From a virus, in the IMG/VR virus record IMGVR_UViG_3300045988_183350: DNA of 64,000 nt. One strand, written 5' to 3'. The notes under the pieces are model-generated. The model made no database searches. It was not told the origin of the DNA and saw only the letters and a list, made by a program, of their open reading frames with translations. Of this stretch, positions 33,133 to 56,015 are shown piece by piece (the stretch's first letter is position 1; the number at the start of each line of letters is the position of its first letter). The position numbers and the translations under genes are program-made.

Positions 33133-33705
33133 TTATAAATCAAATGCCACTGCAGGTTTTTCTTCAGTTTTAATTGCAGGATTAAGTTGTTCAAATGAGT
33201 AATCATTCGCATTACTAATTAAATAATCGATAAAATCACGTTTTGCAGGAATGTGTTGCGTTAAATCATCAGCGGCAACTAACATATTGTTAATGTCATT
33301 GCCGAAAATATCGCCTACAACATAAAAGGTATTATGGGCTGTAACGAATTTTTTAACAACTGACCAAAACCCTTTTTTAAATGTCGATTTAGTATAGGTG
33401 ACCTTATACTTAACGGCAATTCGACGAAATTCATAATTATATACGGCAATCAAATATTTTGTAGTCATATCGTCAAGATAATTTTCATAATTTGCTTTGT
33501 CATTAAGAATTTTTTTCATAACGTCCGCAATTTTACGACATCGTTTTCGATTTTGTTCGTAACCTTCCCAGGATAAATAATTACCACAATAAGGGGCTCG
33601 TTCAAAGCCAAAATAATTAAATTGACATTGAGGCCCATAAGCCTCATCGCTAACACCAGTTAAAATCTCAACCATAAAATCAAGTTTGTATTTTGTATCA
33701 ACCAT
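33133..33705 (-). CDS. Family-B paralog (190 aa), C-terminal tail ...AVAFDL
   Basis: Paralogous to 33724-34302, 34320-34898, 35162-35671 (shared KLDFMVEIL, ANYKKYL, VKYKVTYTS, NTFY, AADDL motifs). Confidence 0.55.
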   Translation of the reverse strand: MVDTKYKLDFMVEILTGVSDEAYGPQCQFNYFGFERAPYCGNYLSWEGYEQNRKRCRKIADVMKKILNDKANYENYLDDMTTKYLIAVYNYEFRRIAVKYKVTYTKSTFKKGFWSVVKKFVTAHNTFYVVGDIFGNDINNMLVAADDLTQHIPAKRDFIDYLISNANDYSFEQLNPAIKTEEKPAVAFDL

Positions 33706-33723
33706 TAGTTTTACCTCCTAAGC

Positions 33724-34302
33724 TTACAATTCTGTAAAATTTGTTGATTCATGTACGTATTCAAGTAATTGACCAGTATTTGCAAATGACCACGCCGTTG
33801 CATTAGCTAACAAAAACTTTATGTCATCAGCTAGCAACAAAGCATGCTGGTTTAAATCGTCAGCCGCAATTAGCGTATTGACCTCACTACCATAAAGGCA
33901 ATCACCTGCAATATAAAATGTATTGTGTTTTAGTACAAAAGATTTCGCATTTTCTGGAAAAAACGTTGGAAAAGTTTCGCTTGTATACGTAACTTTATAT
34001 TTAACGATAAACATACAAAACACTTCATTATAAATATTAAGTAGGTATCGCTCGGTGTTTGCGTTCAAATATTTTTTATAATTAGTCTTGTCTTTGACAA
34101 TTTGATTCATTACTTTTGAAACATTTTCGATTACAATTGAATCGATAGTTTCTAAATACTCATCAAAACCAGCGTCATAGTCCCAGCCATAATAATTAAA
34201 TCGACAACTGCCAAAACCAAAGCCATAACTAAACTCATCCATAGCTGTAACACTCTTTAAAATCTTAACCATAAAATCAAGTTTGTATTCTTTATCAATC
34301 AT
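33724..34302 (-). CDS. Family-B paralog (192 aa), C-terminal tail ...STNFTEL
   Basis: Paralog alignment; RBS AGGAGG. Confidence 0.55.
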   Translation of the reverse strand: MIDKEYKLDFMVKILKSVTAMDEFSYGFGFGSCRFNYYGWDYDAGFDEYLETIDSIVIENVSKVMNQIVKDKTNYKKYLNANTERYLLNIYNEVFCMFIVKYKVTYTSETFPTFFPENAKSFVLKHNTFYIAGDCLYGSEVNTLIAADDLNQHALLLADDIKFLLANATAWSFANTGQLLEYVHESTNFTEL

Positions 34303-34319
34303 TAGTTTTACCTCCTGTA

Positions 34320-34898
34320 TTACAATTTTGTAAAATCAGCCGATTCACGTACTGGTCCGGCAATTGGGCTAAGCTGTTCAAATGAGCAATCGCTTGCATT
34401 TTTAAGCAATGCTGCAGTGTCGCCAGGTGTCGTTACGACATATTGGCTTAAATCGTCTACAGCAACTAATGCGTTATATGCTTTAGTGTCAAGACAGTCA
34501 CCAATCGCATAAAATTCGCTGTTTTCCAATACGAAAGTTTTAACATGTTTTGGGAAGTATTTCGGAAAAGTCTTACTTGTATAAGTCATTTTAAATTTGA
34601 CAATCATTGTACGGAAAATACGGTCATAAGCTGTGACTAAGTATTCTTCAGTAATTGCGTCTAAATACTTTTTATAATTAGCTTTGTCGTCTGAAATTTG
34701 TTTCATTGCATTTACAATAATATCAGCCTTTTCTTTAGCTTTCGCATAACCTTCATACTTTACATACTCACTGCATACAGCATCACGTTGCAAACCAAAA
34801 TAAGAAAAACGGCACTCACCGTAACCTTCGCCCACTTTGCCTGTAACTTCAGTTAAAACCTCAACCATAAAGGCAAGTTTACTTGTGTTATCAATCAT
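34320..34898 (-). CDS. Family-B paralog (192 aa), C-terminal tail ...SADFTKL
   Basis: Paralog alignment; own promoter-leader cassette at 34927-34962 (-). Confidence 0.55.
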   Translation of the reverse strand: MIDNTSKLAFMVEVLTEVTGKVGEGYGECRFSYFGLQRDAVCSEYVKYEGYAKAKEKADIIVNAMKQISDDKANYKKYLDAITEEYLVTAYDRIFRTMIVKFKMTYTSKTFPKYFPKHVKTFVLENSEFYAIGDCLDTKAYNALVAVDDLSQYVVTTPGDTAALLKNASDCSFEQLSPIAGPVRESADFTKL

Positions 34899-35161
34899 TG
34901 TATTTACCTCATTTCAATTTATATAATCATTATACCACAATAAATTTAAAAGTAAACCTTTTTAAGTGAATTAATGTAGCCTAAAAGTATGCTATAAACG
35001 GGCTATTGGTCGCTATTTAAAAAATAAGCAATGCTTATTGACCACAATAGCGTTTAAAAGCCCATATCAAGCATATATCGCGGCTAATCTTAAGTCTAGG
35101 CTAAATACATAGGCTGGCTTTAAAACGCGATACGGGCTTAATATGGACTATTTAAAGACGA

Positions 35162-35671
35162 TTACAAATTTACTGAATCAGTATCGGCTTTTACAATTGG
35201 CAATTGGTTGTTATGGAAACATTTACTACTGCAAATTAATTGGTCAATATAGGCTTCAGAGGTCTCAACATGGTCGTCGGTATTTGTAACTGACGCTAAT
35301 CGATAAAACTTTCCGCGAGTATAAATCTTATGCAAAATATAAAATCGTGGATTGCGTTTAAGAAACGCTTTTACATTTTTCCTAAACCCTTTAAAGTTGT
35401 CATTTGGGTCAACCTCAATTTCAGTCAAAACAGCTACCTGCCAATAAATTTTTTTGTACTGTTGCACTAATGCAGTTACCACTTCTTCTGTCAAGTAAGC
35501 TTTATAATTTGCTTTGTCATTTGTAATGGCAATAAGATTCGTCATAATGTCTGCGTTATACTCTACTGGTTTAATATAGCCGGCATAATCGGTATAAAGT
35601 TTACATTCCCCGTATTCTTCAACCTCGACTAAAATATCAATCATAAATGTTACAATTTCGTCATTAGTCAT
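35162..35671 (-). CDS. Family-B paralog (169 aa), C-terminal tail ...TDSVNL
   Basis: Paralog alignment (DKANYKAYL, FY). Confidence 0.5.
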   Translation of the reverse strand: MTNDEIVTFMIDILVEVEEYGECKLYTDYAGYIKPVEYNADIMTNLIAITNDKANYKAYLTEEVVTALVQQYKKIYWQVAVLTEIEVDPNDNFKGFRKNVKAFLKRNPRFYILHKIYTRGKFYRLASVTNTDDHVETSEAYIDQLICSSKCFHNNQLPIVKADTDSVNL

Positions 35672-35688
35672 AATTACTTCCTTTCATC

Positions 35689-36444
35689 TTACAGTTCAAA
35701 ACTTACAGGTTTACCAGAGTCCGCATTTACAGGTTTGTCTACTTTTTCAATATAGCCAAACATGCGGTCACAATTATATTTTGGAAGAAAGACTTTTTTG
35801 CCGTCACTAAAGTTTACCTCATATTGGCAAGCGTCACGCTTTGCAAAAATACTTGTGGTAAATGTGAAAATTGAATCCTTGTCAAACTCTGTTAAGTCTG
35901 AAACTCTACTACAAATGTCAAAATCTTTAATGCGAAATGGACCAAGTGTCGTTGTACTATTTAGTTCATCTAAAATGAAATACCTTGCATCCTCATTTTC
36001 AGTGACTATATAACTAAGCATTGAGCCTTTAATAAATGTTTCATTAATTGTCCAAAAATTATCCTCGTCGATGAGATTTGTCATTAATTTTTTAAGATTA
36101 GTGACTCCGGCTTTATTAAATTCGCGCCTACACAAGTTATCAGCCATGCTATACATAAATTGTTTTGTACCGTCATCACCAGTACGAACAAGTATATCGC
36201 CGAAAGCCCGGTTATCACCTGTAAGGGCATTTAATTTTTCAATAAGCTCGGCCTTATTTGACAAACAATTTACTGGAACATTAATCCACGTTTTCATGCG
36301 TGTAAACTTTTTCATAAACTCAAAGTTAATGTAGTAATTACCGGCTTTAGTTTTATAAATACATTCGCAGGTATATTTACTACCACCAGGCATATTCACT
36401 GAATCGCTCAAAAATTGTGTTTCTGGATATTTAAAAGTTGTCAT
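35689..36444 (-). CDS. Family-A paralog (251 aa), C-terminal tail ...KPVSFEL
   Basis: Shares GPFRIKDF and FTFTTSIF motifs with 36555-37277; promoter-leader at 36474-36512 (-). Confidence 0.55.
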   Translation of the reverse strand: MTTFKYPETQFLSDSVNMPGGSKYTCECIYKTKAGNYYINFEFMKKFTRMKTWINVPVNCLSNKAELIEKLNALTGDNRAFGDILVRTGDDGTKQFMYSMADNLCRREFNKAGVTNLKKLMTNLIDEDNFWTINETFIKGSMLSYIVTENEDARYFILDELNSTTTLGPFRIKDFDICSRVSDLTEFDKDSIFTFTTSIFAKRDACQYEVNFSDGKKVFLPKYNCDRMFGYIEKVDKPVNADSGKPVSFEL

Positions 36445-36554
36445 TGTTTAATTCCTCATTTCTTAATTTATAACTATATTATACCAAAATATATTTAAAA
36501 GTAAACCTTTTTGTAAATAAAAAAATTGCATTAATGTGTTAATGCAATTTAAAA

Positions 36555-37277
36555 TTATAGTTCGAAAGCCATAGTGTCAGTTTCAATTTCGTCAGCTGTG
36601 GTTTCTTTTTCCTCGATACGTTCAACATGTTTCCAAGCTGTCTTAAAGTCACCAGCTTTAATAGTAAATGTGTCACCATTATCCTTAGTTACAAGCATAC
36701 GACTTATGGCTCTGTCTTGTCCAAAGTAATTCGTTGTAATTGTAAAAAGCTTACTGTCAAAGTTCTCAAAACCTTTATAATAATTATATGGATGGTCACG
36801 CTTAAACGTGATGAAATCTGTGATTTGGAAAGGTCCCATAGTCACCAAACCATTCAACTCAGTTTGAATTCGAGGGCGAACATTACGATTGTCATGCAAT
36901 TCCAAAATTGCGTCTACATCAGCAACTTGTGCAATCACACGGTCAAACTTAGTCACTAAAAGTTGGCGCAATTTTGCTTTGTCTTCTTTGTCAATGTGCG
37001 GGTAATAATAATATAGACCACCTGCAACGTGAGAATAATGCCTTTGAGTTTTCCAAGTTTGAACCAACGGTTTAAGCTTTTGATTAAGTTCATCCGCATT
37101 TGCAAGCTCATCCACAGGAATACTTAGTGTAACATCTGCCCAAGTGTAGTCAGGACGAACTCTAAAGTATAAATACAATTTATCAGTTTCACGTGTCTGA
37201 ATAATACCTAAGAATGTACTATTTTTTGTGTTAGCTTTAAACTCTTGCAAGTACTTTGCTTCTTTTGATACCGTCAT
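36555..37277 (-). CDS. Family-A paralog (240 aa), C-terminal tail ...DTMAFEL
   Basis: GPFQITDF, FTITTNYF; promoter-leader at 37311-37345 (-). Confidence 0.55.
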   Translation of the reverse strand: MTVSKEAKYLQEFKANTKNSTFLGIIQTRETDKLYLYFRVRPDYTWADVTLSIPVDELANADELNQKLKPLVQTWKTQRHYSHVAGGLYYYYPHIDKEDKAKLRQLLVTKFDRVIAQVADVDAILELHDNRNVRPRIQTELNGLVTMGPFQITDFITFKRDHPYNYYKGFENFDSKLFTITTNYFGQDRAISRMLVTKDNGDTFTIKAGDFKTAWKHVERIEEKETTADEIETDTMAFEL

Positions 37278-37449
37278 TACTTATGTCCTCATTTCTTAAT
37301 TTATATTTACATTATACCATAAAATTTTTAAAAGTAAACCTTTTTATAGTAAAAAATTGTACTAATGTACTAATACAATGATACAAGAAAAAGCCGTTTT
37401 AATCTACTTTTATATGGCGAAGCTATTGTTTAATGGATTAAAATGGCTT

Positions 37450-38160
37450 TTATAAATCAAATGCAATCGCATTTTTAGTAGTTGTTTCAGGTTTAAAATC
37501 GACAGGTTCACTTAATCGTACAAGAGTCGCTAAATATTTAAACTGAAAGAAATCTTTAAAGCCATCAGGTGATTCAAATAAAACACGGCTAATTTTTGAA
37601 GGGTATTCAACATCAATCGCCAATTTAAAGGTTGGATAATCAGTAACCCATTGTTTAACTTTTGCGGGCAAACTACCACCAAATCTGCCAGTAAATGTGC
37701 GATAACCTAATGAAACAATGGTTGATGCTCGCTCTTTAATGTCAGCATTAGCATGAATCGAAAATGTAATGTCAGGATATTGAGCAAAAATACCTTTTAG
37801 CGTACTAATTCCATTTGTATCAATGAAGTCGCGAATATCAAGTCCAACTTTGCGAAAACGTGAAAATTCGACTGTTACAACACCGTCATAGTCATCCCAA
37901 TCGTCTTTGTCACTGTAAATTAGTTTAACTAAATCAGTAAAAATGTCATATAATTCCTCATTCATATAAGGTTTTTGAACATGAATTTTAAAATCATTTC
38001 TTTTAAGAACTGGTCCAACCAATGATTCAACTTTAAAATACAAGTCGAAACTATGCAAAGCTGGGTAATACTCAATGCCATCAAGCCCAGTTTTGCAATA
38101 CTCAGACAAATAAGTAATCGCTTGTTTAGACAGTGGCTCAACGCCATGTGTTTGTGTCAT
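37450..38160 (-). CDS. Family-A-related protein (236 aa), C-terminal tail ...NAIAFDL
   Basis: ORF with 11-nt spacing to the upstream gene; same C-terminal tail motif. Confidence 0.5.
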   Translation of the reverse strand: MTQTHGVEPLSKQAITYLSEYCKTGLDGIEYYPALHSFDLYFKVESLVGPVLKRNDFKIHVQKPYMNEELYDIFTDLVKLIYSDKDDWDDYDGVVTVEFSRFRKVGLDIRDFIDTNGISTLKGIFAQYPDITFSIHANADIKERASTIVSLGYRTFTGRFGGSLPAKVKQWVTDYPTFKLAIDVEYPSKISRVLFESPDGFKDFFQFKYLATLVRLSEPVDFKPETTTKNAIAFDL

Positions 38161-38171
38161 AAAAGTCCTCC

Positions 38172-38939
38172 TTATAAATCAAAATTTGTATTGCCATTAA
38201 TAATAGCCACAGGTTTAATATAAGGCATAATAAGGTCTAAATATTTAACCGGAAATTCGAATGTATCACCTTGTGTAATGTCTGTGCGAACGACACTAAA
38301 CGCATTGCGATGCAAGAAACTAGTTGTAAATGTAAATTCGCTCATCTTATCAAAATGTGATACAATATGTTTGTTTACAAAAAGCTTTTGACTATAAGAT
38401 AACCCAATATCAATAGACTTAACAAATCCGTCATAGTCGTCAAAACAATAAGTAGGTGTTGTGATAATTGAATTCATCTCAGCTAAAATATAATCATAGC
38501 CCCAAATGTCATAAGCATTGTCACTAGCTGATACCTTGTCGACAAAGTTTTTAATATCTGTTAGCCCTTGTTTTCGCAAATATGTACCAAAATCAGACGA
38601 GTATGTACTCCAATAAATTTCGAAACATCCATAATCCAACAACTGATTTTTCAAATTATTATTGTTAGACGCTAAAATCATATTTTCAATTTTGTCAGCC
38701 AGATTTTGTACAAGTGATTGGTCTTTCCAAGCATTCAAATTAAATGTAATTGATACAGTCTCTTTAGTAAATGGCAATTTAACATAAAATTTAAATAAAT
38801 TGACGGTATTGCCATTGATAACCTCACGTGAGATTTTGTTTATAGTAAATGCCTTTGGATGAGTACGTACTAATTCTTTCAAATACGCAAATGTTTTTTC
38901 ATCTAATGTTTTAATATTATTATTTAGTTGTTCAGTCAT
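38172..38939 (-). CDS. Family-A paralog (255 aa), C-terminal tail ...GNTNFDL
   Basis: Closely paralogous to 38951-39694 (FAYLKELVRTHPKAF; EFTFTTSFLHRNAFSVVRT). Confidence 0.55.
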   Translation of the reverse strand: MTEQLNNNIKTLDEKTFAYLKELVRTHPKAFTINKISREVINGNTVNLFKFYVKLPFTKETVSITFNLNAWKDQSLVQNLADKIENMILASNNNNLKNQLLDYGCFEIYWSTYSSDFGTYLRKQGLTDIKNFVDKVSASDNAYDIWGYDYILAEMNSIITTPTYCFDDYDGFVKSIDIGLSYSQKLFVNKHIVSHFDKMSEFTFTTSFLHRNAFSVVRTDITQGDTFEFPVKYLDLIMPYIKPVAIINGNTNFDL

Positions 38940-38950
38940 AAAATCTTCCT

Positions 38951-39694
38951 TTATAAATCAAAACTTGTATTGTTTGCTTGCATGTTAGGCGTGAGTTCCA
39001 CATAAGGCATAAGAAATTCCAAATATTTAGTTGGAAATTCGACAATATTGCCTTGTGTTTTTGTGATTCTTACGATACTGTGAGCAGGCTTATATATAAA
39101 GCTCGAAGTAAATGTAAATGTGTCAGATTCAGCTAATTTTGAAACAATATTTTTATTACAATAATTTCTAGCTTTTGATGGCAAGCAATTTACATCAGTA
39201 ACAAAGCCGTCAAAGTTGGTAAAATGATAAACTGGTGTCGTAATAAGCGAATTAATCTCAATGAAAATTAAATGTTCAGCATCAATATCCACAGCACTTG
39301 ATTCTGATACTTTATCAAAGAATGTCGATACCTGTGTCAAGTTAAGATTTTTCAAATAAAACTCACAATCGGCCTTGTACAAATCCCAGCTAATAGTTAC
39401 TAAGCCGTCATTACGAGCTAACATATCTTTAAGCTCGTCATAATCCGACCCTAAAATGATATTGTCGATTTTGTCAGTTAAATTTGTAACAAATTCTTTG
39501 TCGCCTAATTCATTTATACTAAATGTAATATTAACTTCAGACTTTGTGAAAGGCAATTTAGCAGCGAACTCAAACAAGTAATAAGCTCGGCTATCGCTCT
39601 TGTTAATATCCCGATAAATGCAACACAAGCGAAATGCCTTTGGATGTGTTCGTGACAGTTCTTTTAAGTAATTAAAAGCTTTTTGTTCAGTCAT
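38951..39694 (-). CDS. Family-A paralog (about 247 aa), C-terminal tail ...NNTSFDL; first gene of the array
   Basis: Start MTEQKAF after the conserved leader GAAATGAGG (the track ORF start at 39709 is the in-leader ATG); promoter at 39726-39760 (-). Confidence 0.55.
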   Translation of the reverse strand: MTEQKAFNYLKELSRTHPKAFRLCCIYRDINKSDSRAYYLFEFAAKLPFTKSEVNITFSINELGDKEFVTNLTDKIDNIILGSDYDELKDMLARNDGLVTISWDLYKADCEFYLKNLNLTQVSTFFDKVSESSAVDIDAEHLIFIEINSLITTPVYHFTNFDGFVTDVNCLPSKARNYCNKNIVSKLAESDTFTFTSSFIYKPAHSIVRITKTQGNIVEFPTKYLEFLMPYVELTPNMQANNTSFDL

Positions 39695-39759
39695 ATGAAT
39701 TAACCTCATTTCTTATTTAGTCATTTTATTATAACACGTCTTATTTAAAAGTAAACCTT

Positions 39760-39995
39760 TTTATAAAAATAACTTATTTTAAAATTAAGTTTGTAACTTT
39801 ATATAAAAATCGTAAAACACGCCCGATTAGACCAATTTTTCACATAAAATGTACGCGAAGTCTTTAATACCAATGCTTTAATAGCTATGCTATCTTTTAA
39901 TTGGTACTCAACGCTTCGTTCGAGTTTTTACTTTAAAATTGATTTTCGTCGGGCAAAAAATCGAATTTCGGATAATTTTATAACATACTAAAAGT
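39760..39995. repeat. ~240-bp inverted-repeat arm (partner at 48600-48845, about 85% identical)
   Basis: Direct comparison, e.g. 'aaataacttattttaaaattaagtttgtaacttta..cgtaaaaca/gcgcccgattagaccaatttt...ctaaaagtatgctata'. Confidence 0.7.
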
Positions 39996-40039
39996 ATGCT
40001 ATAGGCAAAAATAAAAAAATCTTTAAATTTATTCAAATA

Positions 40040-40108: not shown

Positions 40109-40351
40109 ATGTATAAAATTGATAACTCCGTAAGTCTTAATGACTTCGACACAATTTCACAATATATCAAATGGCTTTGCAAGCGTAAAGGTATTACGAT
40201 TAAAAAAATGTGCGAGAATACCGGCTATAAGTATAATACAATCGCAGGTAATTATAAAAATCAATATTTAAGTCGTCAAACGTTGGTTGACGTGATTAAT
40301 TACTTGGAAGGCGATTTTAATATCGCTATGAACTTGCCTTACAGAAAATAA
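40109..40351 (+). CDS. Small hypothetical protein
   Basis: 80 aa; RBS AGAGG. Confidence 0.45.
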   Translation: MYKIDNSVSLNDFDTISQYIKWLCKRKGITIKKMCENTGYKYNTIAGNYKNQYLSRQTLVDVINYLEGDFNIAMNLPYRK

Positions 40352-40442: not shown

Positions 40443-42149
40443 ATGATGAAATTATTTGATACTAAAGATGATTTTAAAAATCATATCAAATCACTCGTCC
40501 GTAAAGCTAGTCCATTATTAAATGAAGGCAAACCTGTTACAACTCTTAGAACTCCTGAAGTAGTCGAACATCTTGATACATGTTTAGACTTAATTTATGA
40601 AAAAGAAATTGTCGAGAGTACCGTTACATTCAGATGGTATTATCGCAATTATGACTCATATCTTTACAATGAATTAACGTCTAATGAACTAAAGGCACTT
40701 ATCAGGTTAATTGCGAAAGGTATTGGTGCAAAAAATTATGATTTAGCTAAAATCGCTTACAGTGTCGTCGACGAATTAAATGCCGGCGCATCGTATGACG
40801 AACTTAAAGCTAAACCATACAAAAAACCACCATGGAATTATGTACTAACAGTTAATGGGATATTCAATCTCAAATCAGCTGAATTCTATACAATTGATTC
40901 AGATAAATACAAACAGTTAGTTACAACATATCACTTTTTTAATAATGTCACAATTAGCTATTATGAACAACCACATAATAAGTCGAAATTTGAATTGTAT
41001 AAAACATACATGGACTCATTATGCAACGGTGAGGAAGACTTACAAAAGTTACTCAAACAAGGAATGTTTGCCGTTATCGAAGGTAATGGACGACATAAAT
41101 ATTTTATGATTTCCGGAGACCCAGGTATTGGGAAATCTACGTTAGGCTATTTGTTTATGGCACTAGCTGGACAAGCAAATACTAAAATATTGAATATTGA
41201 CAAATTAGCAAATAATAACGCAATTAATGCAATTTCGCCGCAGACAAGATTGATTATTGGCGACGACTTAAAAAATAATGCGAAAATTTCAGACGATGCA
41301 ATTACAAACTATAAAATTTTAGTGGATGGTAATGCGTTGTCAGCTGAAGTTAAATACGAGCACAATCGTATTATTAAAACAAATGCGTTTTGGATGCAAA
41401 TGATGAATGAAGCACCAAGGATTTACGAGGCCGGTGAAGCAATTACAGACCGAACGATTTTTATTCACTTAAAAGGGAAAAATCACAGGAATGACAAAGA
41501 AGCCGCAGCTAAAGAAATGGCTAAACGTTTAGACGAGTATTTAGGCCGACGTGGGAATGGCATTGACCAGGAATTTATTAATGAGATTGCGTCAGATGTA
41601 TTAAGAAGTATTAAATACTTTGACGAATTTGATATTCCAGAGTCAATTAAGAAAGCAACAGCTAATATGGTTAATGAAAATAACTGGATGCACCAGTTTA
41701 TTGACCATGCCACAGAAGTTGGTTTGTTCGAATTTAATACATTGAAGCAATCAACAATTGTCTCATGTGTGGAACTGTTTTTACGTGAGAATAATCCAGG
41801 CATGACTATTCCAGCAGCAAGACGGATTGTTAAAGAGTGGAAAAAACAGCTGGATGATTTGGGTTATAAAGAAGAAACTGTTCGTCAACGTAGTGTACCA
41901 GAGATTGATTACAATGCAGACATTATAAAAAATTATATGTTTGAAGGATTCAATGACAAAAACACAATGACAACAATGTATTCTAAAACAAGAGGCAGAA
42001 TTGACGACAAAAATATTAAGAAATTTGAAGCCGAACTTGAACAAGGGTTGGTTCCAAAAGAATTGTCAATACGACAAATGATTATGCTTGAGCATTTAAT
42101 CAGTAAAGGCAATTTAACTGCAGCAAGTTATAAAACAGATGCAAAATGA
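40443..42149 (+). CDS. P-loop NTPase (putative replication initiator / SF3-like helicase)
   Basis: Walker A 'ISGDPGIGKSTLGY'; large N-terminal domain; followed by a 2.4-kb repeat-rich non-coding region. Confidence 0.45.
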   Translation: MMKLFDTKDDFKNHIKSLVRKASPLLNEGKPVTTLRTPEVVEHLDTCLDLIYEKEIVESTVTFRWYYRNYDSYLYNELTSNELKALIRLIAKGIGAKNYDLAKIAYSVVDELNAGASYDELKAKPYKKPPWNYVLTVNGIFNLKSAEFYTIDSDKYKQLVTTYHFFNNVTISYYEQPHNKSKFELYKTYMDSLCNGEEDLQKLLKQGMFAVIEGNGRHKYFMISGDPGIGKSTLGYLFMALAGQANTKILNIDKLANNNAINAISPQTRLIIGDDLKNNAKISDDAITNYKILVDGNALSAEVKYEHNRIIKTNAFWMQMMNEAPRIYEAGEAITDRTIFIHLKGKNHRNDKEAAAKEMAKRLDEYLGRRGNGIDQEFINEIASDVLRSIKYFDEFDIPESIKKATANMVNENNWMHQFIDHATEVGLFEFNTLKQSTIVSCVELFLRENNPGMTIPAARRIVKEWKKQLDDLGYKEETVRQRSVPEIDYNADIIKNYMFEGFNDKNTMTTMYSKTRGRIDDKNIKKFEAELEQGLVPKELSIRQMIMLEHLISKGNLTAASYKTDAK

Positions 42150-44636
42150 ACTTATTGATTTAAGTTTATTTTTTTTTTTATATAAAAACTTGACAAAAAA
42201 TCAGAAGCGTGCGTGAATGGGTTTTTTCATGCACAAATTTAGTGAATTAACTGGTACGTATACTGTCGAGCTAACTCTAATTATTACTGGTGAATTACAG
42301 GATATTTACTGTAAGTATTGGTAATCATACTGTTCATGATACTGTGCATGAACTTTTTTTCATGCACGAATTTAGTGAATTAACTGGTAGACATACTATC
42401 AAGATGACGTTGGTTATTACTGGTGAATACAGATAAATTACAGGATATTTACAGTAAGTATTGGTAATTATACTGTTCATGATACTGTGCGCGAACTTTT
42501 TTCGCGCACAAACTTAACCTATTACTTGATACTGTTGGTACAGGGATGATACTGGTAAAAATAGGTAAATTTTAGGGTATTTACCGTAAGTATTGGTAAT
42601 CATACTGTTCATGATACTGTGCGCGAACTAGGGTATACTTTCGTACGCGCACACTTTCGCGCACGCTTCCTCAAGTACTGGTATTCTTACGTAAATTAAC
42701 AGTGAATTTAGGTGTACTACCGTACACGCACACCTTCACGCACACCGTCCTGACTATTGGTAACCATGAGTTATGCACACTTCGTGTGCATATAAATTTA
42801 AAAAATAGTACAAAAGAATATTTTTTTAACTTTTATTTTATTAAAAAAAAAGTTGTATTTCATATAGGTTACAGCCAATTTTTGTGAATTCACGCACACT
42901 GCGTGTGCGGAAGGTAAGAGTACCAGTAATTAGAAGGTTGTGCATGAAGGTGTGCGTCTAATTTTGCTCACGCACAAATTTGAATTTGCGAGGTCGACAG
43001 CGAGCTGTCTCTCAATCAAATGGGAAATTGTGGTCCGAAAAAATTACGCGCACACTCTTACGCACACATATACTGTTTGCTTGATAGTCAATACATTGGT
43101 CAAATTTATGGTTAAAAAATAAATTTACCGTATGATAGTGTAAATTGACTGGTAATCAACTAAAGTAAAAGAGTTGTGCACGTAATTAGGTGTACTTACG
43201 TACACGCACAGTTCATGCACAGTTACGCACAGTAATTGACTGTCATATATCCGTCAAATTTATGGTTAAAAAATAAATTTACTGTATCATACCGTAAATT
43301 GGCTGGTACCCAACTAAAGTAAAGAGATTGTTCATATAATTAGGTATACTTACGTACGCGCACAACTTAATGATTTTGCGTAAATATTTGGCTAATCAAA
43401 ACACATACTCAGATAAATTATACAAAGAATTACTCGCACATATGACTAATCCTAAACGCATTACCGTATAAATTATAAGCAGATACGGTTATAACATTAA
43501 ATGATTCAAGTAAAACTTAAGACAAAGTTATTGGATGAGTTAAGACATTTAATGATACAAAAATAACTAATTGCAAAAAACCTTAAATAAGTCTAAATGA
43601 ATGATGAGGTAGAGGTATGTGGCAGGCCATAGACTATTATGTTTAATAGTTTAAAAGCAGAATTTGCTAGCACTTTGCAGTCATGCAGTAAATTTTTTCA
43701 AGAAATAATATCCTGAATTTTTTTGGGATATTATTTTTTTATTTCAAGAAACTTGTAAAAATAAATTTTTGTGCAGTAAAAGCGCACGGCAAAAAAATAC
43801 TGCACAATTTTGACTATAATGATTGAGTACCTGTAAATACAGTTAAATATTCTTTTGATTTTGTTTAATTTGATTTAATTTTATGAAATTTTCATTGTAC
43901 TGGTACTCAATACCTTTATTATACTGTGCGCTATAATAGTATACCAAAATTTGGTGCACAGTTTGGTGCACACGCTGTTGACTATTGGTACACAACAGTT
44001 ATTTGACTGTTGATTTCAGGTATACTATTATAGCGCACAACTTGGTGCACAAATATCTTTTGCTTGGTACTGTTACAATCCACACACGTTGTGTGCGGTA
44101 TTTTTTAAAATTTATATCAAAAGAATATTTTTTTATTTTTTATTTTATTAAAAAAAAAGTTGTATTTCATATAGGTTACAGCCTGTTTTCCTGTTTTGCT
44201 GCACGCAGCGCGTGCAGACATCAACTATACCAGTTAAAAGGTATGTGTGCAGTAAGTTGTGCGGTAAATTTTCTTGGTGCACAAATTTGACTTTGCCAAG
44301 TCGACAGCGCGCTGTCGCTCAATCAAAGCGTCAATCTTGAAAGACCGAAAAATAGTGCACAACTTGCTGCACAGGTATCTTGACAGTAAGAGTACCAATC
44401 CATACGGCTGGTTTTCTGTAAATCGCAATTTTATACCAAAATTCAACTGTATAGTCTGTGTACCAAATAAAAGTAAGTAAAATCCAAAAATCATGCACCA
44501 AAAATTTTTTCCTGCACGCAATATTAACCTTTACCTTGATTACCAGTAGTTCGGCTGAGATTTTTTACTGCACAACTTAATGATTTTGCTTCAATTTTTC
44601 CTGAAAAATAAAAAATAAGCAGTAAAATTTTACTGC
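42150..44636. repeat. Repeat-rich non-coding region (second origin / packaging / terminal-repeat candidate)
   Basis: No credible ORF; three copies of TGGTAATCATACTGTTCATGATACTGTGC (about 42320, 42460, 42600); many GTGCGCG/TGCACAA boxes; two palindromes GTCGACAGCG(A/C)GCTGTC (42992-43010, 44302-44320); ~100-bp unit duplicated at 43105-43205 / 43270-43370; ~70-bp unit duplicated at 42810-42880 / 44110-44180. Confidence 0.7.
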
Positions 44637-44999
44637 TTAATAATAGTAATAATATCCATTCCATTCGTACATTCCGTAACCAAATTCATCTGTGTAATTG
44701 TACCAATAACCGTCATTGCCATAATAACCATATGAAATGTAATTACCTTGATAATCATAATACTGAAATTCGTTCGGATAACTCACATAAATTGAATCCG
44801 TTGTCATTGCCTGATTATCCTCTGCATAATAATTATTGTCATTATAAGTATTCACGTTTGTGTTATTTACATATGACCATGCTGGTGGTTGATGATTTCC
44901 ACCCATTACCTCACCTTCATCAGCTGACGCTAGTACAGGCATCATTGCGGGCAATACTGATACAGTTCCGAGTGCAATTGTTTTCAACTTGTTTGTCAT
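44637..44999 (-). CDS. Secreted Tyr/Asn/Gly-rich small protein
   Basis: Signal peptide MTNKLKTIALGTVSVLPAMMPVLASA; C-terminal half is more than 30% Tyr; RBS AAAGGGGA. Confidence 0.45.
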   Translation of the reverse strand: MTNKLKTIALGTVSVLPAMMPVLASADEGEVMGGNHQPPAWSYVNNTNVNTYNDNNYYAEDNQAMTTDSIYVSYPNEFQYYDYQGNYISYGYYGNDGYWYNYTDEFGYGMYEWNGYYYYY

Positions 45000-45282
45000 A
45001 AAATAAATCCCCTTTATTTAGTATATCCCCATCATATCACATTTTCCTGTAATTTTAAATAGAATCAATTTTATAGCCCTTAAATCAGCCCGTATTGCGT
45101 CCAAAAACATTTTTAGTATAATCATATACCCACGCCACCAGACGCGATACAGAGCAAATTAGAGCTGTTTAAAGCAATGTAGCCTAAAAGTATGCTATAG
45201 TAAAAAGTCAACTAAAAAAGGCCGTAGACCCTATTTCACACTTAAGCAATGCTTAATTAAAACATAGGTTTGTTGGCCTTTT

Positions 45283-45672
45283 TTAGTTGACTTTTTTAGT
45301 CCTTGCGATTGTCGCTAAATAGTGTTCGTGATAATATGTATTAAACGTATCAAACACAGTTCTTGTTTCGGTGACATTCACATTATATTTACTCACAATA
45401 TCACGAATTTTTGAAACAGTTTCACTTAAGTTATCAATAGTTTTGTCAATTTTTTTGACGGCATCTTTGCCATATTGTTTGACAAGTGATTTTTTCAAAT
45501 CGTTTAGCTCATTTATCTTGTCGTCAAGATATGTTGTTGATGCCAAAATCTCGTCGATATTCTCAGACAAAGCTGTAAGTTCTTTGTCTAATCCCTTTGA
45601 GATATTTTCGAGTTTATCTGGATTTTTCAGCGAATTACCTTCTTGATATGACGTGTCAATTTTTGTAATCAT
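45283..45672 (-). CDS. Coiled-coil hypothetical protein
   Basis: 129 aa; RBS AAGGGAG. Confidence 0.45.
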   Translation of the reverse strand: MITKIDTSYQEGNSLKNPDKLENISKGLDKELTALSENIDEILASTTYLDDKINELNDLKKSLVKQYGKDAVKKIDKTIDNLSETVSKIRDIVSKYNVNVTETRTVFDTFNTYYHEHYLATIARTKKVN

Positions 45673-45683
45673 AATAAACTCCC

Positions 45684-46349
45684 TTAAATCATCTCAATCA
45701 AATAATTATTTGTCCAGCTGATTTCCATGCTTGGAATGTCTGAATTATCCTCTGTTTCGAGATTGAATTCAAGACCTTCTTTAGTGAGAAAATCCTCTAA
45801 AACAAATGTTAACTGTGTTCGTAGTTCTGACAAATACTGAATTCGCAATTTATTATTGATTATAGTTGAATTTTGAATTTTATAATGATTTTGCAACAAA
45901 CTGCGATTCATTAAAGCAAGTTTGTCTGTCAAATCTTTTAATGTTGGACAGTCTGTATCTTTAAAGTGGTCTCTGTATTTGATATTTTTTAAATACTCTG
46001 AAATCACTGCTTTAGTGATTAAACCTGTTTTTGAGTATGATGGTGAATAACCAAGAAGTTTTTCGAATAGGTCAATGTCCCAAGAATCAGATGATACAAA
46101 GAAGGTCGTATCACCTTTGCGAATCTTTTCAAGCATTTGCGTTTTAATATCATTGATAAAAATATCTTTTTTAAGAGACGTTTTTAACGCGGTCTCAAAC
46201 GTCGTATGTTGCAATTCAAAATATTTTTTTGTGTCATTAATAATATAATTGGCAAACTTAGCTGACAGGTCGTCAATAATCTTTGCAATACGTTTTTGGC
46301 GTTCTTGATAATCTTTATATTCTTTTTTTAGTTCGTCTTTAAAACTCAT
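45684..46349 (-). CDS. Hypothetical protein
   Basis: 221 aa; RBS AGGAGACG; 4-nt overlap with the upstream gene. Confidence 0.45.
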   Translation of the reverse strand: MSFKDELKKEYKDYQERQKRIAKIIDDLSAKFANYIINDTKKYFELQHTTFETALKTSLKKDIFINDIKTQMLEKIRKGDTTFFVSSDSWDIDLFEKLLGYSPSYSKTGLITKAVISEYLKNIKYRDHFKDTDCPTLKDLTDKLALMNRSLLQNHYKIQNSTIINNKLRIQYLSELRTQLTFVLEDFLTKEGLEFNLETEDNSDIPSMEISWTNNYLIEMI

Positions 46350-46999
46350 TCATCGTCTCCTGTATTATTTAGTGATTTAATGTCATCTTCACTTTGTGCG
46401 ATTGTTGTTAATCCTGTACGTACTGGGTGAATGTATAATCCACCATTTTCATAAGTACTAGCTTCAACTGTGATTTTACTTGGTTCACGATTTAGTTTAT
46501 AGAGGGCATATTCAGCGGCATTGATTCGGTAAGTTGTTCCAGAATTTTGGAAAGTGACAAAGTAGTCATCACTGTTTGGATTCTTCTCAACTTTTTGTAC
46601 AATACCTGTAATAAAGAATTGTGTCTTGCGTGGATTATGATTGGTCACCAGGTCTTTAAAAGGATAAACTTTATAAGGCAATCCAGAGTTGTTGTATTGG
46701 GTTACGGCATCTTCAAGGTGAGCATCCATTTCTTGTGGCGACAAGAAAGTTGATTTGCCAATATAATGCTGATTGTATTTAGCCACTACATTTTTATTGT
46801 AGTTGTGGAACATAACCGGAATGGCAAAAGCAGTGATAACGGCGATGACAGCTATGATTGCTGAGACTTTGGCACGTTTTTGATTTAGTGCAAAGTCATC
46901 TTGATGTTTAAAGTATTTAGCTGAGCCAAGAGTGTCTCTGAAATAATAGGTTGAAAAACCTGCTGCGACAATAGCAACAATAATTAATATAATAGTCAT
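46346..46999 (-). CDS. Membrane-anchored hypothetical protein
   Basis: N-terminal TM (MTIILIIVAIVAAGF) plus a second TM; RBS GAAAGGA. Confidence 0.45.
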   Translation of the reverse strand: MTIILIIVAIVAAGFSTYYFRDTLGSAKYFKHQDDFALNQKRAKVSAIIAVIAVITAFAIPVMFHNYNKNVVAKYNQHYIGKSTFLSPQEMDAHLEDAVTQYNNSGLPYKVYPFKDLVTNHNPRKTQFFITGIVQKVEKNPNSDDYFVTFQNSGTTYRINAAEYALYKLNREPSKITVEASTYENGGLYIHPVRTGLTTIAQSEDDIKSLNNTGDDE

Positions 47000-48567: not shown

Positions 48568-48599
48568 AACTTGTATTTTACATACAGGTTTTTTATTTT

Positions 48600-48845
48600 T
48601 ACTTATAGCATACTTTTAGCATGCTATAAAATCGCCTAAAAATCGTCTTTTTTCGCCCGACAAAATCAATTTTGTAGACAAAACGTGTACGAAGCCTTGT
48701 CTACCAATTAAAAGATAGCGTAGCTATTAAAGTTTTGGTATTCAAAGCTTCGCGTGAGTTTTTGTTAAAAAATTGGTCTAATCGGGCGCGTTTTACGATT
48801 TTGTGATAAAGTTACAAACTTAATTTTAAAATAAGTTATTTTTAT
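48600..48845. repeat. Inverted-repeat arm, partner of 39760-39995
   Basis: Reverse complement aligns with 39760-39995. Confidence 0.7.
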
Positions 48846-48914
48846 AAAAAGGTTTACTTTTATTAAATAATGTGGTATAATTAGTTTATCAACGAATGAA
48901 AAGGAGATAAACAA

Positions 48915-55191: not shown

Positions 55192-55512
55192 ATGGATGTC
55201 ATTATTTTATGGTTAAATATGTTTTGCCAAATCTTAGCCATATGTTCGGGAATGTTTAATATGCCATTGGCCGTAATTGTACTAATATATTTCGCTAAAT
55301 TTTGCAAATCTAAATTTAAACAAACGTATGTATTTGTTTTTGTAATTGGCATGGGTATTTATTTTATAATTAGCTCATCAGTAATTTTCTTTACTGTAAA
55401 TTATTTTATCGATTACGGTTGGCTTGTCGGGCTTATACAATTAGCATTTTTTGGAATTAATGCGCTGATTGGACGGATTTTAGCTAAGGCTGGCGATAAC
55501 ATAATCGAATAA
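55192..55512 (+). CDS. Array member (106 aa, three TM; C-terminus ...DNIIE, divergent)
   Basis: RBS AAGAAAGGAAG; hydrophobic. Confidence 0.5.
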   Translation: MDVIILWLNMFCQILAICSGMFNMPLAVIVLIYFAKFCKSKFKQTYVFVFVIGMGIYFIISSSVIFFTVNYFIDYGWLVGLIQLAFFGINALIGRILAKAGDNIIE

Positions 55513-55682
55513 CCATATTATAAACTTAAACTTTAAGAAAGGAATTTTATAATGAGACGATTTTTGTCATATATTTATTATCTTATTGGTCATTACTAAA
55601 AATTAGTAATGACCGACGTAAAAACAGTAGCTAATATGAAAGCTACGTATCACAAAATTAAAATTTAAGAACGGAGCTTAAA

Positions 55683-56000: not shown

Positions 56001-56015
56001 GAAAGGAGACTTATA

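What the first reader, a model, noticed from the sequence alone, without database searches (positions are those of the whole stretch)
42150..44636. 2.4-kb repeat-laden non-coding region downstream of a P-loop NTPase: second origin, packaging site or genome terminus candidate
Seen directly: there is no credible ORF. A 29-mer (TGGTAATCATACTGTTCATGATACTGTGC) is present three times in 42320-42620. GTGCGCG/CGCACAC and TTGTGCAC boxes are dense. Two near-identical palindromes GTCGACAGCG(A/C)GCTGTC lie within a conserved 35-bp context (GAGGTCGACAGCGAGCTGTCTCTCAATCAAATGGG at 42990; CCAAGTCGACAGCGCGCTGTCGCTCAATCAAAGCG at 44300). A ~100-bp unit is duplicated (43105-43205 / 43270-43370), and so is a ~70-bp unit (42810-42880 / 44110-44180). 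GC content is locally much higher than the surroundings (CGCGCAC-type boxes in an AT-rich genome). Inference: by analogy with the first iteron region, which sits beside the primase-helicase, this one sits beside the Walker-A NTPase 40443-42149. It could be a second origin (as in SPP1 oriL/oriR), a pac/cos or terminal-repeat boundary, or a recombination hotspot. Its GC-rich boxes differ completely from the TTTCCAATGTA boxes, implying a different binding protein.
Basis: partly seen in the sequence, partly recalled or inferred. Interest (0 to 1): 0.65.

Follow-up and report, generated by a model that had tools for sequence, protein, structure and literature searches.

The report
Duplicated helicase-linked iteron origin candidate
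The 2.5-kb gene-free stretch is most likely two versions of a plasmid/satellite-type replication origin lying side by side (short protein-binding boxes arranged head-to-head around an AT-rich centre, just after the gene for a self-loading helicase), separated by the stump of a transposon gene; it is a recognisable kind of element in a little-studied giant extrachromosomal DNA, not a packaging site or genome end.

Summary
The repeats are real, and the region holds no intact gene. It is a composite of three parts. (1) A 1.2-kb "B block" (42180-43366). (2) The last 35 codons and 3' untranslated part of an IS605-family tnpB (43364-43745). (3) A 0.9-kb "A block" (43746-44615).

In seven related metagenomic contigs the same site holds only one block. 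B alone occurs in three contigs. An intact tnpB followed by A occurs in two, and a sixth, truncated contig shows an A block only. The window is therefore a recombinant that carries both alleles.

Each block has a 66-bp, almost invariant AT core. The core is flanked by two 7-8-bp hairpin palindromes with compensatory changes, then by YGCACA boxes in opposite orientation, usually 12 bp apart.

The upstream 568-aa protein is an SF3 helicase. Its best structural match is the SaPI5 PriRep self-loading helicase. Its C-terminal third co-varies with block type.

This anatomy matches the published definition of SaPI Rep-ori. It also matches the annotated origin position in Streptococcus phage Sfi19.

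The best reading is a cognate helicase/iteron origin cassette (confidence about 0.55). Origin activity is untested, and gene orientation argues against it being the element's main origin. Nothing supports a pac, cos or terminus reading. GC content is not raised (0.329 against 0.334).

The parts
40109..40351 (+). 80-aa Cro/C1-type HTH protein, first gene of the HTH-helicase pair
   Evidence: Pfam HTH_26 E=2e-4 and PHROG transcriptional regulator. A small HTH ORF precedes the helicase homologue in L001, L002 and L004/L005.
40443..42149 (+). 568-aa SF3 (P4/D5-type) helicase, the putative self-loading initiator, with a C-terminal domain of about 148 aa
42144..42182 (+). Intrinsic-terminator-like hairpin plus U-run that ends the helicase transcript
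   Evidence: RNA fold -8 kcal/mol, z -4.1. The equivalent hairpin in L001 scores -11.7 kcal/mol.
42222..42629 (.). Three direct repeats of about 133-143 bp (B block). Each holds the 29-mer and ends in a 9-10-bp box-pair palindrome TGTGC(RY)GAA-N5-6-TTC(RY)GCACA
   Evidence: Repeat families D2, D3, D7 and the 29-mer count. The ssDNA hairpins score -8.4 and -12.6 kcal/mol, z about -6.5 and -6.3. Copy number is 2 or 3 in relatives L009-L011.
42629..42790 (.). Two 79-bp units, each with a tandem pair of + oriented CGCACA boxes 12 bp apart. This is the left iteron arm of module 1
   Evidence: Families D5, D6, D8 and the box map. GCAC columns are invariant across 7 homologous modules.
42772..42792 (.). 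Left core-flanking palindrome or hairpin of module 1 (TGCACAC-TTC-GTGTGCA)
   Evidence: ssDNA fold -8 kcal/mol, z -5.6. Compensatory changes across relatives.
42811..42876 (.). 66-bp near-invariant AT core of module 1. It lies inside the ~100-bp AT-rich spacer 42793-42892, where GC is 0.21
   Evidence: 63 of 66 columns are invariant across A-type and B-type modules that are otherwise about 77% identical. GC profile.
42893..42909 (.). Right core-flanking palindrome or hairpin of module 1 (CGCACAC-TGC-GTGTGCG)
   Evidence: ssDNA fold -8.2 kcal/mol, z -3.3. 100% paired, with 2 of its 7 pairs changed on both sides.
42939..43066 (.). Right iteron arm of module 1: two - oriented boxes (42939, 42951), a + box (42971), the 6+2+6 palindrome GTCGACAGCGAGCTGTC (42993-43009), and a tandem + pair (43049, 43061)
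   Evidence: Inverted repeat I1, 42723-42789 / 42894-42960, 72% complementary. The palindrome is not a stable hairpin (z about 0), so it is more likely a duplex binding site.
43091..43364 (.). Two 154-bp direct repeats with clusters of boxes spaced 10-11 bp (auxiliary arrays). The B block ends with the tag GCACAACTTAATGATTTTGC (43360-43379)
   Evidence: Family D4 at 84% and D9. Two or more copies of the 154-bp unit are present in relatives. The same end tag closes the A block at 44570.
43364..43471 (+). Relic of an IS605-family tnpB: last 35 codons plus stop, with the 5' ~1.1 kb missing
   Evidence: tblastn to the intact 409-aa TnpB of L001 gives 77% identity, E=3e-11. The L001 gene carries OrfB_IS605 and Cas12f1-like_TNB. 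An intact copy is also present in L008.
43472..43745 (+). 3' non-coding part of the IS relic (where a TnpB guide RNA would be encoded), ending in a strong terminator hairpin at 43700-43740
   Evidence: 82% identical to L001 13047-13417. One stem shows a compensatory change, CTGTTA/TAACAG in L001 against CTATTA/TAATAG here, read. Terminator -16.8 kcal/mol, z -5.9.
43746..44615 (.). A block, the allelic second module. It contains a box palindrome (43769-43807), a 21-nt perfect inverted repeat with tandem TGCACA pairs (43925-44051), a decayed left hairpin (44081-44095), the AT core (44118-44183), the right hairpin (44200-44216), - oriented boxes (44246, 44258), the palindrome (44300-44316), a tandem + pair (44356, 44368) and the end tag (44570-44589)
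   Evidence: About 90% identical to L001, L008 and L012. Aligns with module 1 over about 480 nt. Inverted repeats I2 and I9. Box map.
44616..44639 (-). Hairpin terminator of the convergent downstream operon (genes 44637-46999 on the - strand)
   Evidence: -11.5 kcal/mol, followed by U6 on the - strand.

Best explanation
The region is a cis-acting, helicase-linked iteron origin cassette. It is of the type used by staphylococcal pathogenicity islands (Rep-ori), by Streptococcus thermophilus Sfi21/Sfi19-type phages and, more distantly, by satellite phage P4. Here it is present as two allelic copies in tandem.

Proposed mechanism. The 568-aa SF3 helicase, encoded immediately upstream, would recognise the YGCACA boxes through its C-terminal winged-helix-like domain. 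The boxes face each other across a ~100-bp AT-rich spacer, so two hexamers would be positioned on either side. The spacer would melt. The two perfectly symmetric 7-8-bp palindromes that border it could extrude as hairpins once the strands separate. The helicase would then load itself without a separate loader. The 133-bp and 154-bp sub-repeats carry further boxes and could act as auxiliary or copy-control arrays.

History. Normally there is one block per genome, with two alleles: A (mostly TGCACA boxes) and B (mostly CGCACA boxes). An IS605-family tnpB element sits between the helicase gene and the block in A-type genomes. The window's genome joined a B block to the 3' end of that IS plus its A block, at the 7-nt microhomology ATTTTGC.

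What is shown and what is inferred. Shown: the anatomy, the conservation pattern, the structural alleles and the fold of the neighbouring protein. Inferred: binding of the boxes by the helicase, melting, and origin firing.
For: 1. Neighbour. The helicase carries DUF5906 and P4-family primase C-terminal matches. The best PDB fold match of its AF2 model is the SaPI5 PriRep self-loading helicase (7OLA, E=9e-15, TM 0.57-0.76), followed by poxvirus D5/E5 and the ASFV primase-helicase.

2. Published definition of the SaPI ori (PMC9371898). The ori lies immediately downstream of rep. It has 6-12 penta- or hexanucleotide iterons and a central AT-rich region, with at least 2 iterons on each side pointing in opposite directions. 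The Rep C-terminal winged-helix domain binds the iterons. Here the hexamer YGCACA occurs 37 times in the region against 23 times elsewhere in the window. The + oriented tandem pairs lie left of the core and the - oriented pairs lie right of it. The commonest same-strand spacing is 12 bp. The AT spacer has GC 0.17-0.21.

3. Selection on the sites. Across 7 homologous modules, 31 of 32 GCAC columns are invariant against 57 of 153 other flank columns (Fisher p=1.3e-10). The AT core is invariant at 63 of 66 columns.

4. Core-flanking palindromes. They are 99% paired, 6 of 15 pairs changed on both sides, and none changed on one side only.

5. Co-variation. Differences between A-type and B-type helicases cluster in the C-terminal third (22 of 27). 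DNA identity falls to 81-88% there against A-type L001, but stays at 90-98% against B-type relatives.

6. Generality. The paralogous helicase at the window start is also followed by an internally duplicated 3-kb region with inverted iteron arrays around AT spacers, built from unrelated boxes. Homologues at 56% and 38% identity have their own adjacent arrays: TGAGATTGA boxes inverted around an AT spacer in L002, and TCATAAAACTTG x3 at 12-bp spacing directly downstream in L014.

7. The GenBank record of phage Sfi19 annotates rep_origin directly after the homologous 'putative primase'.

8. The blocks lie between convergent, terminated operons and contain none of the 22 copies of the element's own promoter consensus. 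They therefore do not look like gene-regulatory DNA or an ordinary transcription unit.
Against: 1. No experiment or read-depth data exists, so origin firing is wholly inferred.

2. Most genes on both sides of the locus lie on the + strand. GC skew in the window simply follows the coding strand. The locus is therefore not at the ORF-orientation switch that the Inocle paper uses to place the main origin. At best it is a secondary, conditional or module-specific origin.

3. One homologue (L013, 44% identity) has no adjacent repeat region. In L002 and L005 the repeats lie upstream rather than downstream.

5. No primase gene accompanies the helicase, unlike SaPI pri-rep or P4 alpha.

6. The C-terminal domain and the block are physically adjacent, so their co-variation could be linkage alone.

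7. Within A-type genomes the dinucleotide before the boxes differs (AC, AG, GG) although the helicase C-terminal domains are identical.

8. The AT core is 650 bp from the stop codon in B-type genomes, and behind a 1.6-kb IS in A-type genomes. This is further than 'immediately downstream'.
Confidence: 0.55

Rival explanations
1. The region is a protein-binding array with a function other than initiation. Candidates are a centromere-like partition site, a copy-control or incompatibility ('handcuffing') array, a fork barrier, or a set of operators for the 80-aa HTH protein. The boxes would be bound by that HTH or by another factor, not by the helicase.
For: Phased 12-bp boxes in two clusters around a core also describe type II plasmid centromeres (own knowledge). 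A duplex palindrome GACAGC-GN-GCTGTC with a free central base is conserved in every module and does not fold well as a hairpin, which fits a dimeric binder. An HTH gene precedes the helicase in most lineages. The locus lies between convergent operons.
Against: No ParA-, ParM- or ParB-like gene was found among the neighbours scanned. HTH sequence variants do not track block type: A-type L001 shares its substitutions with B-type L009 and L011. The helicase C-terminal domain does track block type. The opposed orientation of boxes around an AT-rich spacer next to an SF3 helicase is the specific signature of self-loading helicase origins.
Confidence: 0.15
2. The region is a hypervariable recombination and IS landing zone with no function of its own. 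The repeats would be by-products of slippage, gene conversion and transposon activity.
For: Eight genomes show three structural alleles, an intact or truncated tnpB, and sub-repeat copy-number variation. Short-read contigs break inside the region. The Inocle paper reports assembly breakpoints at ISs and hypervariable regions.
Against: Strong site-specific constraint is present. GCAC columns are invariant at 31 of 32, the AT core at 63 of 66, and the palindromes show only compensatory changes, while the intervening sequence has diverged to about 37% invariant columns. The blocks exist without any IS in B-type genomes. Other tnpB copies in related loci have no box clusters.
Confidence: 0.1
3. 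The region encodes one or more hairpin-rich non-coding RNAs, and the compensatory changes reflect RNA stems.
For: Compensatory changes occur in the two core-flanking stems and between copies of the 133-bp-unit stems. The same element carries a GOLLD RNA. The IS relic keeps the segment where a TnpB guide RNA would be encoded, together with a strong terminator.
Against: No Rfam family passes threshold. The only hits are sub-threshold microRNA-precursor matches that reflect inverted repeats. None of the element's 22 consensus promoters lies in the region. None of the box hairpins is followed by a U-run (sequence). The most conserved segment is an ~85% AT tract unlikely to be structured RNA. The boxes are conserved as short words on both strands, which is typical of duplex binding sites.
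Confidence: 0.07
4. The region is a site-specific recombination site (attP-like or multimer-resolution site). The invariant 66-bp core would be the crossover region and the boxes would be arm or accessory sites.
For: A near-identical core shared by otherwise diverged alleles, flanked by repeated short motifs in both orientations, resembles attP or res architecture (own knowledge). Core variants are shared across A and B types, which suggests exchange within the core.
Against: No integrase or resolvase was found among the neighbouring genes scanned. The core has no exact match in 185,579 species-representative genomes or in IMG/VR, so there is no candidate attB. The elements are reported as extrachromosomal circles.
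Confidence: 0.05
5. The region is a packaging site (pac or cos) or the junction of terminal repeats of a phage genome.
For: Only the general point that pac and cos regions can be repeat-rich and non-coding.
Against: Contigs of 193, 339-344 and 371 kb pass through this locus or its homologues. No terminase or other structural gene was seen among the ORFs scanned. Nothing matches the phage collection at DNA level. The Inocle paper reports no read-end pile-ups for this kind of element.
Confidence: 0.03

Closest known systems
SaPI Rep-ori (Staphylococcus aureus pathogenicity islands; Ubeda et al. 2007/2012 as summarised in PMC9371898)
   Same: A self-loading SF3 helicase (best structural match is SaPI5 PriRep). 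The origin lies downstream of its gene. Short hexanucleotide iterons are used. There is a central AT-rich region with at least 2 iterons on each side in opposite orientation. Paralogues and homologues have private iteron sequences.
   Different: Only about 17% sequence identity to PriRep5. No primase domain or adjacent pri gene. The cassette is 0.9-1.2 kb rather than about 0.3 kb, with extra 133-bp and 154-bp repeat arrays. Two compensating hairpin palindromes border the AT spacer. It sits in a putative ~300-kb extrachromosomal element that holds at least two such cassettes. Binding and replication are untested.
Origin of Streptococcus thermophilus Sfi21/Sfi19-type phages (rep_origin in GenBank AF077306.1)
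   Same: The phage 'putative primase' (orf506) is a detectable sequence homologue of the window helicase (about 27% over residues 133-422). The annotated origin starts at the 3' end of that gene. The host genus is the same or related.
   Different: The phage origin is about 300 bp. No DNA similarity to it was found. The window element is not a recognisable phage.
Satellite phage P4 alpha protein with ori and crr
   Same: A P4-family helicase domain (TIGR01613 match). From own knowledge, alpha binds short iterons through a C-terminal winged-helix domain and needs two separate iteron-bearing cis regions. This resembles the core module plus auxiliary repeat arrays seen here.
   Different: The match is below the family cut-off (66.5 against 108.7 bits). 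There is no primase domain. The iterons here are arranged head-to-head around an AT spacer.
IS200/IS605-family tnpB element (for the central 43364-43745 segment only)
   Same: The last 35 codons and the 3' flank are homologous to an intact OrfB_IS605/Cas12f-like TnpB gene at the same site in L001 and L008.
   Different: It is 5'-truncated and non-functional as a gene. The flanking blocks are not part of the IS, because they occur without it in L009-L011.

Membership tests
SaPI-type self-loading helicase origin (Rep-ori) | The adjacent initiator is an SF3 helicase of the Rep/PriRep type | tested here: met
   AF2 model (pLDDT 79). The top PDB fold matches are all chains of SaPI5 PriRep 7OLA/7OM0, E=9e-15 to 2e-11. 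DUF5906 and P4-family matches.
SaPI-type self-loading helicase origin (Rep-ori) | C-terminal winged-helix domain that reads the iterons | tested here: inconclusive
SaPI-type self-loading helicase origin (Rep-ori) | Origin located directly downstream of the helicase gene | tested here: met
   The B block starts about 30 bp after the stop codon, and the AT core is 650 bp downstream. In A-type genomes a 1.6-kb IS intervenes. The same position is seen in L014 and in phage Sfi19. In L002 and L005 the repeats lie upstream instead.
SaPI-type self-loading helicase origin (Rep-ori) | Six to twelve short (5-6 nt) iterons | tested here: met
   The YGCACA hexamer occurs about 10-12 times within +/-250 bp of each core and 37 times in all. 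GCAC is invariant across modules.
SaPI-type self-loading helicase origin (Rep-ori) | Central AT-rich region with at least two iterons on each side pointing in opposite directions | tested here: met
   Module 1: + boxes at 42727 and 42739, an AT spacer at 42793-42892, and - boxes at 42939 and 42951. Module 2: + boxes at 44034 and 44046, the spacer, and - boxes at 44246 and 44258.
SaPI-type self-loading helicase origin (Rep-ori) | The helicase binds and melts its own origin and supports autonomous replication | not testable with these tools
   Needs EMSA or footprinting, permanganate probing and a replication assay.
SaPI-type self-loading helicase origin (Rep-ori) | Dedicated primase (separate pri gene or fused domain) | tested here: not met
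   No primase domain was found in the 568-aa protein. The N-terminal 130 aa have no family match. The upstream gene is an 80-aa HTH. A primase elsewhere in the element was not searched for exhaustively.
IS200/IS605 tnpB element (central segment) | Intact TnpB ORF with an OrfB_IS605 RuvC-like domain and a zinc-ribbon TNB domain | tested here: not met
   Only the last 35 codons remain in the window. The intact 409-aa gene is at the same site in L001 and L008.
Phage pac/cos or terminal-repeat junction | Adjacent terminase genes or genome ends at the site | tested here: not met
   No terminase was found among the scanned neighbours. Long contigs run through the site. Read-end data were not available.
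Inocle giant extrachromosomal elements (context only) | InoC marker gene (replication-relaxation domain), ~245-370-kb circle, ~32% GC, IS-rich, oral Streptococcus host | tested here: inconclusive
   GC is 0.334. Relatives lie on 280-428-kb contigs. ISs are present. Cell-wall genes typical of streptococci are present. No InoC-like ORF was found among the large ORFs scanned. The window is only 64 kb.

The most novel reading that the evidence does not exclude
The giant (~300-kb) streptococcal extrachromosomal elements, probably Inocles, would be multi-origin replicons that initiate the way eukaryotic DNA viruses do. They would carry at least two paralogous self-loading SF3 helicases, each with a private iteron origin. 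Natural populations would hold interchangeable 'helicase C-terminal domain + origin' specificity alleles (A and B). The window's genome would be a natural recombinant with one initiator facing two allelic origins. The hairpin palindromes bordering the AT spacer would be a melting or loading device not described for SaPI origins.
Probability: 0.3. Interest if true: 0.65.

Novelty: new member of a known kind. Interest (0 to 1): 0.45.

Why it matters
If the reading is right, it identifies concrete replicon modules (initiator plus cis site) in a class of giant oral extrachromosomal elements. So far their origins have only been guessed from GC skew (PMC12340149).

That would give a minimal cassette to test for autonomous replication and to build vectors. 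It would give a handle on incompatibility and copy control. It would also provide a natural set of allelic initiator-origin pairs for studying how the specificity of self-loading SF3 helicases evolves.

The finding also explains why short-read assemblies break at this locus.

Tried and rejected
1. DNA similarity searches of the region and of 24 kb around it against the phage collection found nothing. Protein-level searches of the plasmid and phage collections found only distant helicase homologues.

2. The search for related loci with the helicase found nothing in IMG/VR or in the species-representative genomes. Relatives came only from the protein database and one metagenome pattern scan.

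3. Rfam gave no family for the region at gathering or permissive thresholds.

4. The generic sigma-70 promoter scan was no better than shuffles, 18 against 15.6. The element's own promoter consensus is absent from the region.

5. The two longest ORFs were rejected as genes because they are interrupted in L001.

6. Sequence search of the helicase against PDB chains gave nothing. Only the fold search was informative.

7. I considered that the boxes belong to the IS. This was rejected because B-type loci have the block without the IS, and other tnpB loci lack box clusters.

8. I considered an assembly chimera for the tandem arrangement. The junction shares only 7 nt (ATTTTGC), too short for an assembler overlap. 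Independent short-read contigs from run ERR589524 are 100% identical to both outer parts. The inner junction itself is not independently confirmed.

9. Depletion of YGCACA outside the region is explained by a general shortage of GCAC, since a third-order Markov expectation matches the observed count. It is not evidence of site avoidance.

10. GC skew is uninformative about replication direction here, because it follows the coding strand.
Full report
OBSERVATION

The region 42150-44636 has no ORF longer than 101 aa. The two longest ORFs are interrupted by stop codons in the closest relative.

- The 29-mer occurs three times, two exact and one with a single mismatch, against none expected.
- The two GTCGACAGCG(A/C)GCTGTC palindromes lie at 42993 and 44300.
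- A 120-nt unit is duplicated at a 154-bp offset.
- The '70-bp' duplication is the centre of a 224-nt ungapped homology, about 480 nt when gapped.

The GC-rich 'boxes' reduce to one hexamer, YGCACA. It occurs 37 times in these 2.5 kb and 23 times in the other 61.5 kb (Poisson p about 2e-45). The commonest spacing between same-strand neighbours is 12 bp.

The claim of raised GC content is wrong at any scale above about 100 bp. The region is 0.329 against 0.334 for the window.

WHAT THE REGION IS MADE OF

The closest relative, L001 (helicase 95% identical), is collinear with the window at about 90% identity, with one exception. Window 42180-43366 is replaced in L001 by an intact 409-aa tnpB gene (OrfB_IS605 plus Cas12f-like TNB). 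Window 43364-43471 is the last 35 codons of that gene. It is followed by the IS 3' flank and a strong terminator.

A metagenome pattern scan added five more loci. Together they define three arrangements between the helicase stop codon and the downstream terminator:
- Helicase, intact IS, A block (L001 and L008). L012 is cut within the A block, so its upstream part is unknown.
- Helicase, B block only (L009, L010, L011).
- The window: B block, IS stump, A block.

Every other genome has exactly one AT core, one palindrome and one end tag; the window has two of each. A and B are therefore alleles of one locus, about 77% identical. The window is a recombinant joined at the microhomology ATTTTGC, between the B-block end tag and the interior of tnpB (sequence).

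Sub-repeat copy number varies among B-type genomes. Short-read contigs from run ERR589524 are 100% identical to both outer parts of the window locus and break inside the repeats.

ANATOMY OF ONE MODULE

An alignment of seven modules shows the following parts:
- A 66-bp AT core that is almost invariant (63 of 66 columns) although the flanks have diverged.
- Immediately on each side, a 7-8-bp palindrome with a 3-nt spacer, built from two opposed boxes. These are 99% paired. Six of 15 pairs changed on both sides and none changed on one side only. They are stable as single-stranded DNA hairpins.
- Outside these, tandem box pairs 12 bp apart. They are + oriented on the left and - oriented on the right.
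- A conserved duplex palindrome, GACAGC-GN-GCTGTC, that does not fold well as a hairpin.
- A second symmetric motif, TTGGTA / TACCAG.

GCAC itself is invariant in 31 of 32 columns, against 57 of 153 other flank columns (Fisher p=1.3e-10). The dinucleotide in front of the boxes changes in concert within a lineage: CG or CA in B, GG in the window's A block, AC in L001 and AG in L008.

The blocks are insulated from their surroundings:
- The helicase gene ends in a hairpin plus U-run.
- The downstream genes converge on the region and end in a terminator.
- The element's own promoter consensus, GGTTTAC-N15-19-TAWAAT, has 22 copies in the window against 0.07 expected. None of them lies in the region.

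THE NEIGHBOUR

The 568-aa protein matches DUF5906, PHROG 'DNA primase' C-terminal halves, and the P4-family primase C-terminal model below its cut-off.

Its AlphaFold model (pLDDT 79) is most similar to the SaPI5 PriRep self-loading helicase (7OLA, E=9e-15). Poxvirus D5/E5 and the ASFV primase-helicase follow.

Modelled alone, the C-terminal 148 residues give weak but consistently winged-helix matches, including Orc1/Cdc6 and Cdt1.

Amino-acid differences between A-type and B-type helicases are concentrated in this C-terminal third (22 of 27). DNA identity falls there only against A-type relatives. The small HTH protein encoded upstream does not track block type.

COMPARISON WITH KNOWN SYSTEMS

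The published description of SaPI origins (PMC9371898) lists these features:
- The origin lies immediately downstream of rep.
- It has 6-12 penta- or hexanucleotide iterons.
- It has a central AT-rich region.
- At least two iterons lie on each side, pointing in opposite directions.
- The iterons are recognised by a C-terminal winged-helix domain of a self-loading SF3 helicase.

The sequence-level features are met here. The winged-helix domain is only weakly supported. Binding and replication cannot be tested with these tools. No primase accompanies the helicase.

Independently, the GenBank record of Streptococcus phage Sfi19 annotates its origin directly after the 'putative primase', which is a sequence homologue of the window helicase.

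The design recurs in related loci:
- The window begins inside a paralogous helicase gene (24% identity, collinear). That gene is followed by a 3-kb, internally duplicated region with inverted arrays of AAAAGGTTTAC iterons around AT spacers, plus TTTCCAATGTA boxes.
- L002 (56% identity) has TGAGATTGA boxes inverted around an AT spacer.
- L014 (38% identity) has TCATAAAACTTG x3 at 12-bp spacing directly after the gene.
- L013 (44% identity) has none.

INTERPRETATION AND LIMITS

The best-supported reading is a cognate helicase/iteron origin cassette, present here as two alleles in tandem with an IS stump between them (confidence about 0.55).

What is shown: the anatomy, the site-specific constraint, the population variation, and the fold of the neighbouring protein.

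What is inferred: that the helicase binds the boxes, that the AT spacer melts, and that replication starts here.

Evidence against a main-origin role: most genes on both sides point the same way, and GC skew merely follows the coding strand.

The rivals are less likely for the reasons given in their entries:
- A partition, copy-control or operator array.
- Functionless hypervariable DNA.
- Hairpin-rich RNA.
- A recombination site.
- A pac, cos or terminal-repeat site. This is the weakest rival, because long contigs cross the locus and no packaging genes are nearby.

CONTEXT

Several features fit the recently described Inocle giant extrachromosomal elements of oral Streptococcus, whose origins were placed only by GC skew:
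- 33% GC.
- A 21-tRNA array with a GOLLD RNA.
- FtsEX, PcsB-like CHAP hydrolases, and LPXTG and choline-binding proteins.
- IS elements.
- Relatives on 280-428-kb contigs.

The marker gene InoC was not found in this 64-kb window, so this assignment is provisional.

Noticed in passing
window 19391-19848 and 15263-20103: A GOLLD RNA (Rfam RF02032, 165.7 bits, full length) with tRNA-Tyr embedded at 19460-19536. It sits at the end of an array of 21 tRNA genes, all on the + strand.
   Followed up: no
window, 22 sites (e.g. 9472, 16363, 26441, 39757-, 47090, 63679): The element has its own strong promoter consensus, GGTTTAC(TTTTA)-N-TG-n-TATAAT. There are 22 matches against 0.07 expected, in front of most operons and between tRNA genes. 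None lies in 42150-44636, and none lies in front of the HTH-helicase pair on the + strand.
   Followed up: partly
window 1-4004: The window starts inside a paralogous SF3 helicase gene (Walker A GAGGNGKS in the first 15 codons). It is followed by a 3-kb ORF-free region (GC 0.246) made of a ~1.66-kb tandem duplication. Each copy has 4-5 AAAAGGTTTAC iterons at ~22-bp spacing, inverted around a ~160-bp AT spacer, plus TTTCCAATGTA boxes. The AAAGGTTTAC iteron is the same word as the upstream (-35-like) hexamer region of the element's promoter consensus. This suggests the protein that reads those promoters might also bind this region.
   Followed up: partly
window 39740-40020 and 48590-48870: A ~280-bp inverted repeat (84% identical) brackets the 9-kb segment that holds the HTH, the helicase, the repeat region, four - strand genes and a metallophosphoesterase. 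Each copy carries an outward-facing consensus promoter. This could be an invertible or mobile module, or two copies of one regulatory region.
   Followed up: partly
window 43472-43745 vs L001 13047-13340: The 3' flank of the tnpB relic, where a TnpB guide RNA would be encoded, is kept at 82% identity. One stem shows a compensatory change (CTGTTA/TAACAG in L001, CTATTA/TAATAG here). L001 has a tandem duplication of TTTTGCAGTCATGC that the window lacks. It may be a solo guide-RNA remnant.
   Followed up: no
window, whole: The tetranucleotide GCAC is under-represented outside the region: 160 observed on both strands against 288 (first-order Markov) or 216 (second-order) expected. This accounts for the scarcity of YGCACA elsewhere.
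   Followed up: partly
window 55192-63397: About 24 tightly packed, same-strand small ORFs of similar size (94-137 aa) in a low-GC (0.25-0.30) stretch. One pairwise test found no significant similarity (E=0.17), and the one ORF scanned had no Pfam match.
   Followed up: partly
window 33133-39709 (- strand): A run of about nine - strand ORFs of 169-255 aa with no family match. At least two are weak paralogues (E=3e-5). L001 has one fewer ORF in this run, so copy number may vary.
   Followed up: partly
window 4005-4766, 26504-27478, 24771-26401, 7522-12269: The element encodes a microbial PARG-like protein and a weak PARP-catalytic-domain protein. It also encodes an FtsE/FtsX pair and three PcsB-coiled-coil proteins, two of them with CHAP domains. 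This is cell-division and cell-wall hydrolase machinery, unusual for a mobile element.
   Followed up: no
L005 630-2249 and 18466-19863; L001 11817-13046; L008: TnpB (Cas12f-like TNB) genes recur at different sites in related giant contigs. This is consistent with the IS-rich nature reported for Inocles.
   Followed up: no
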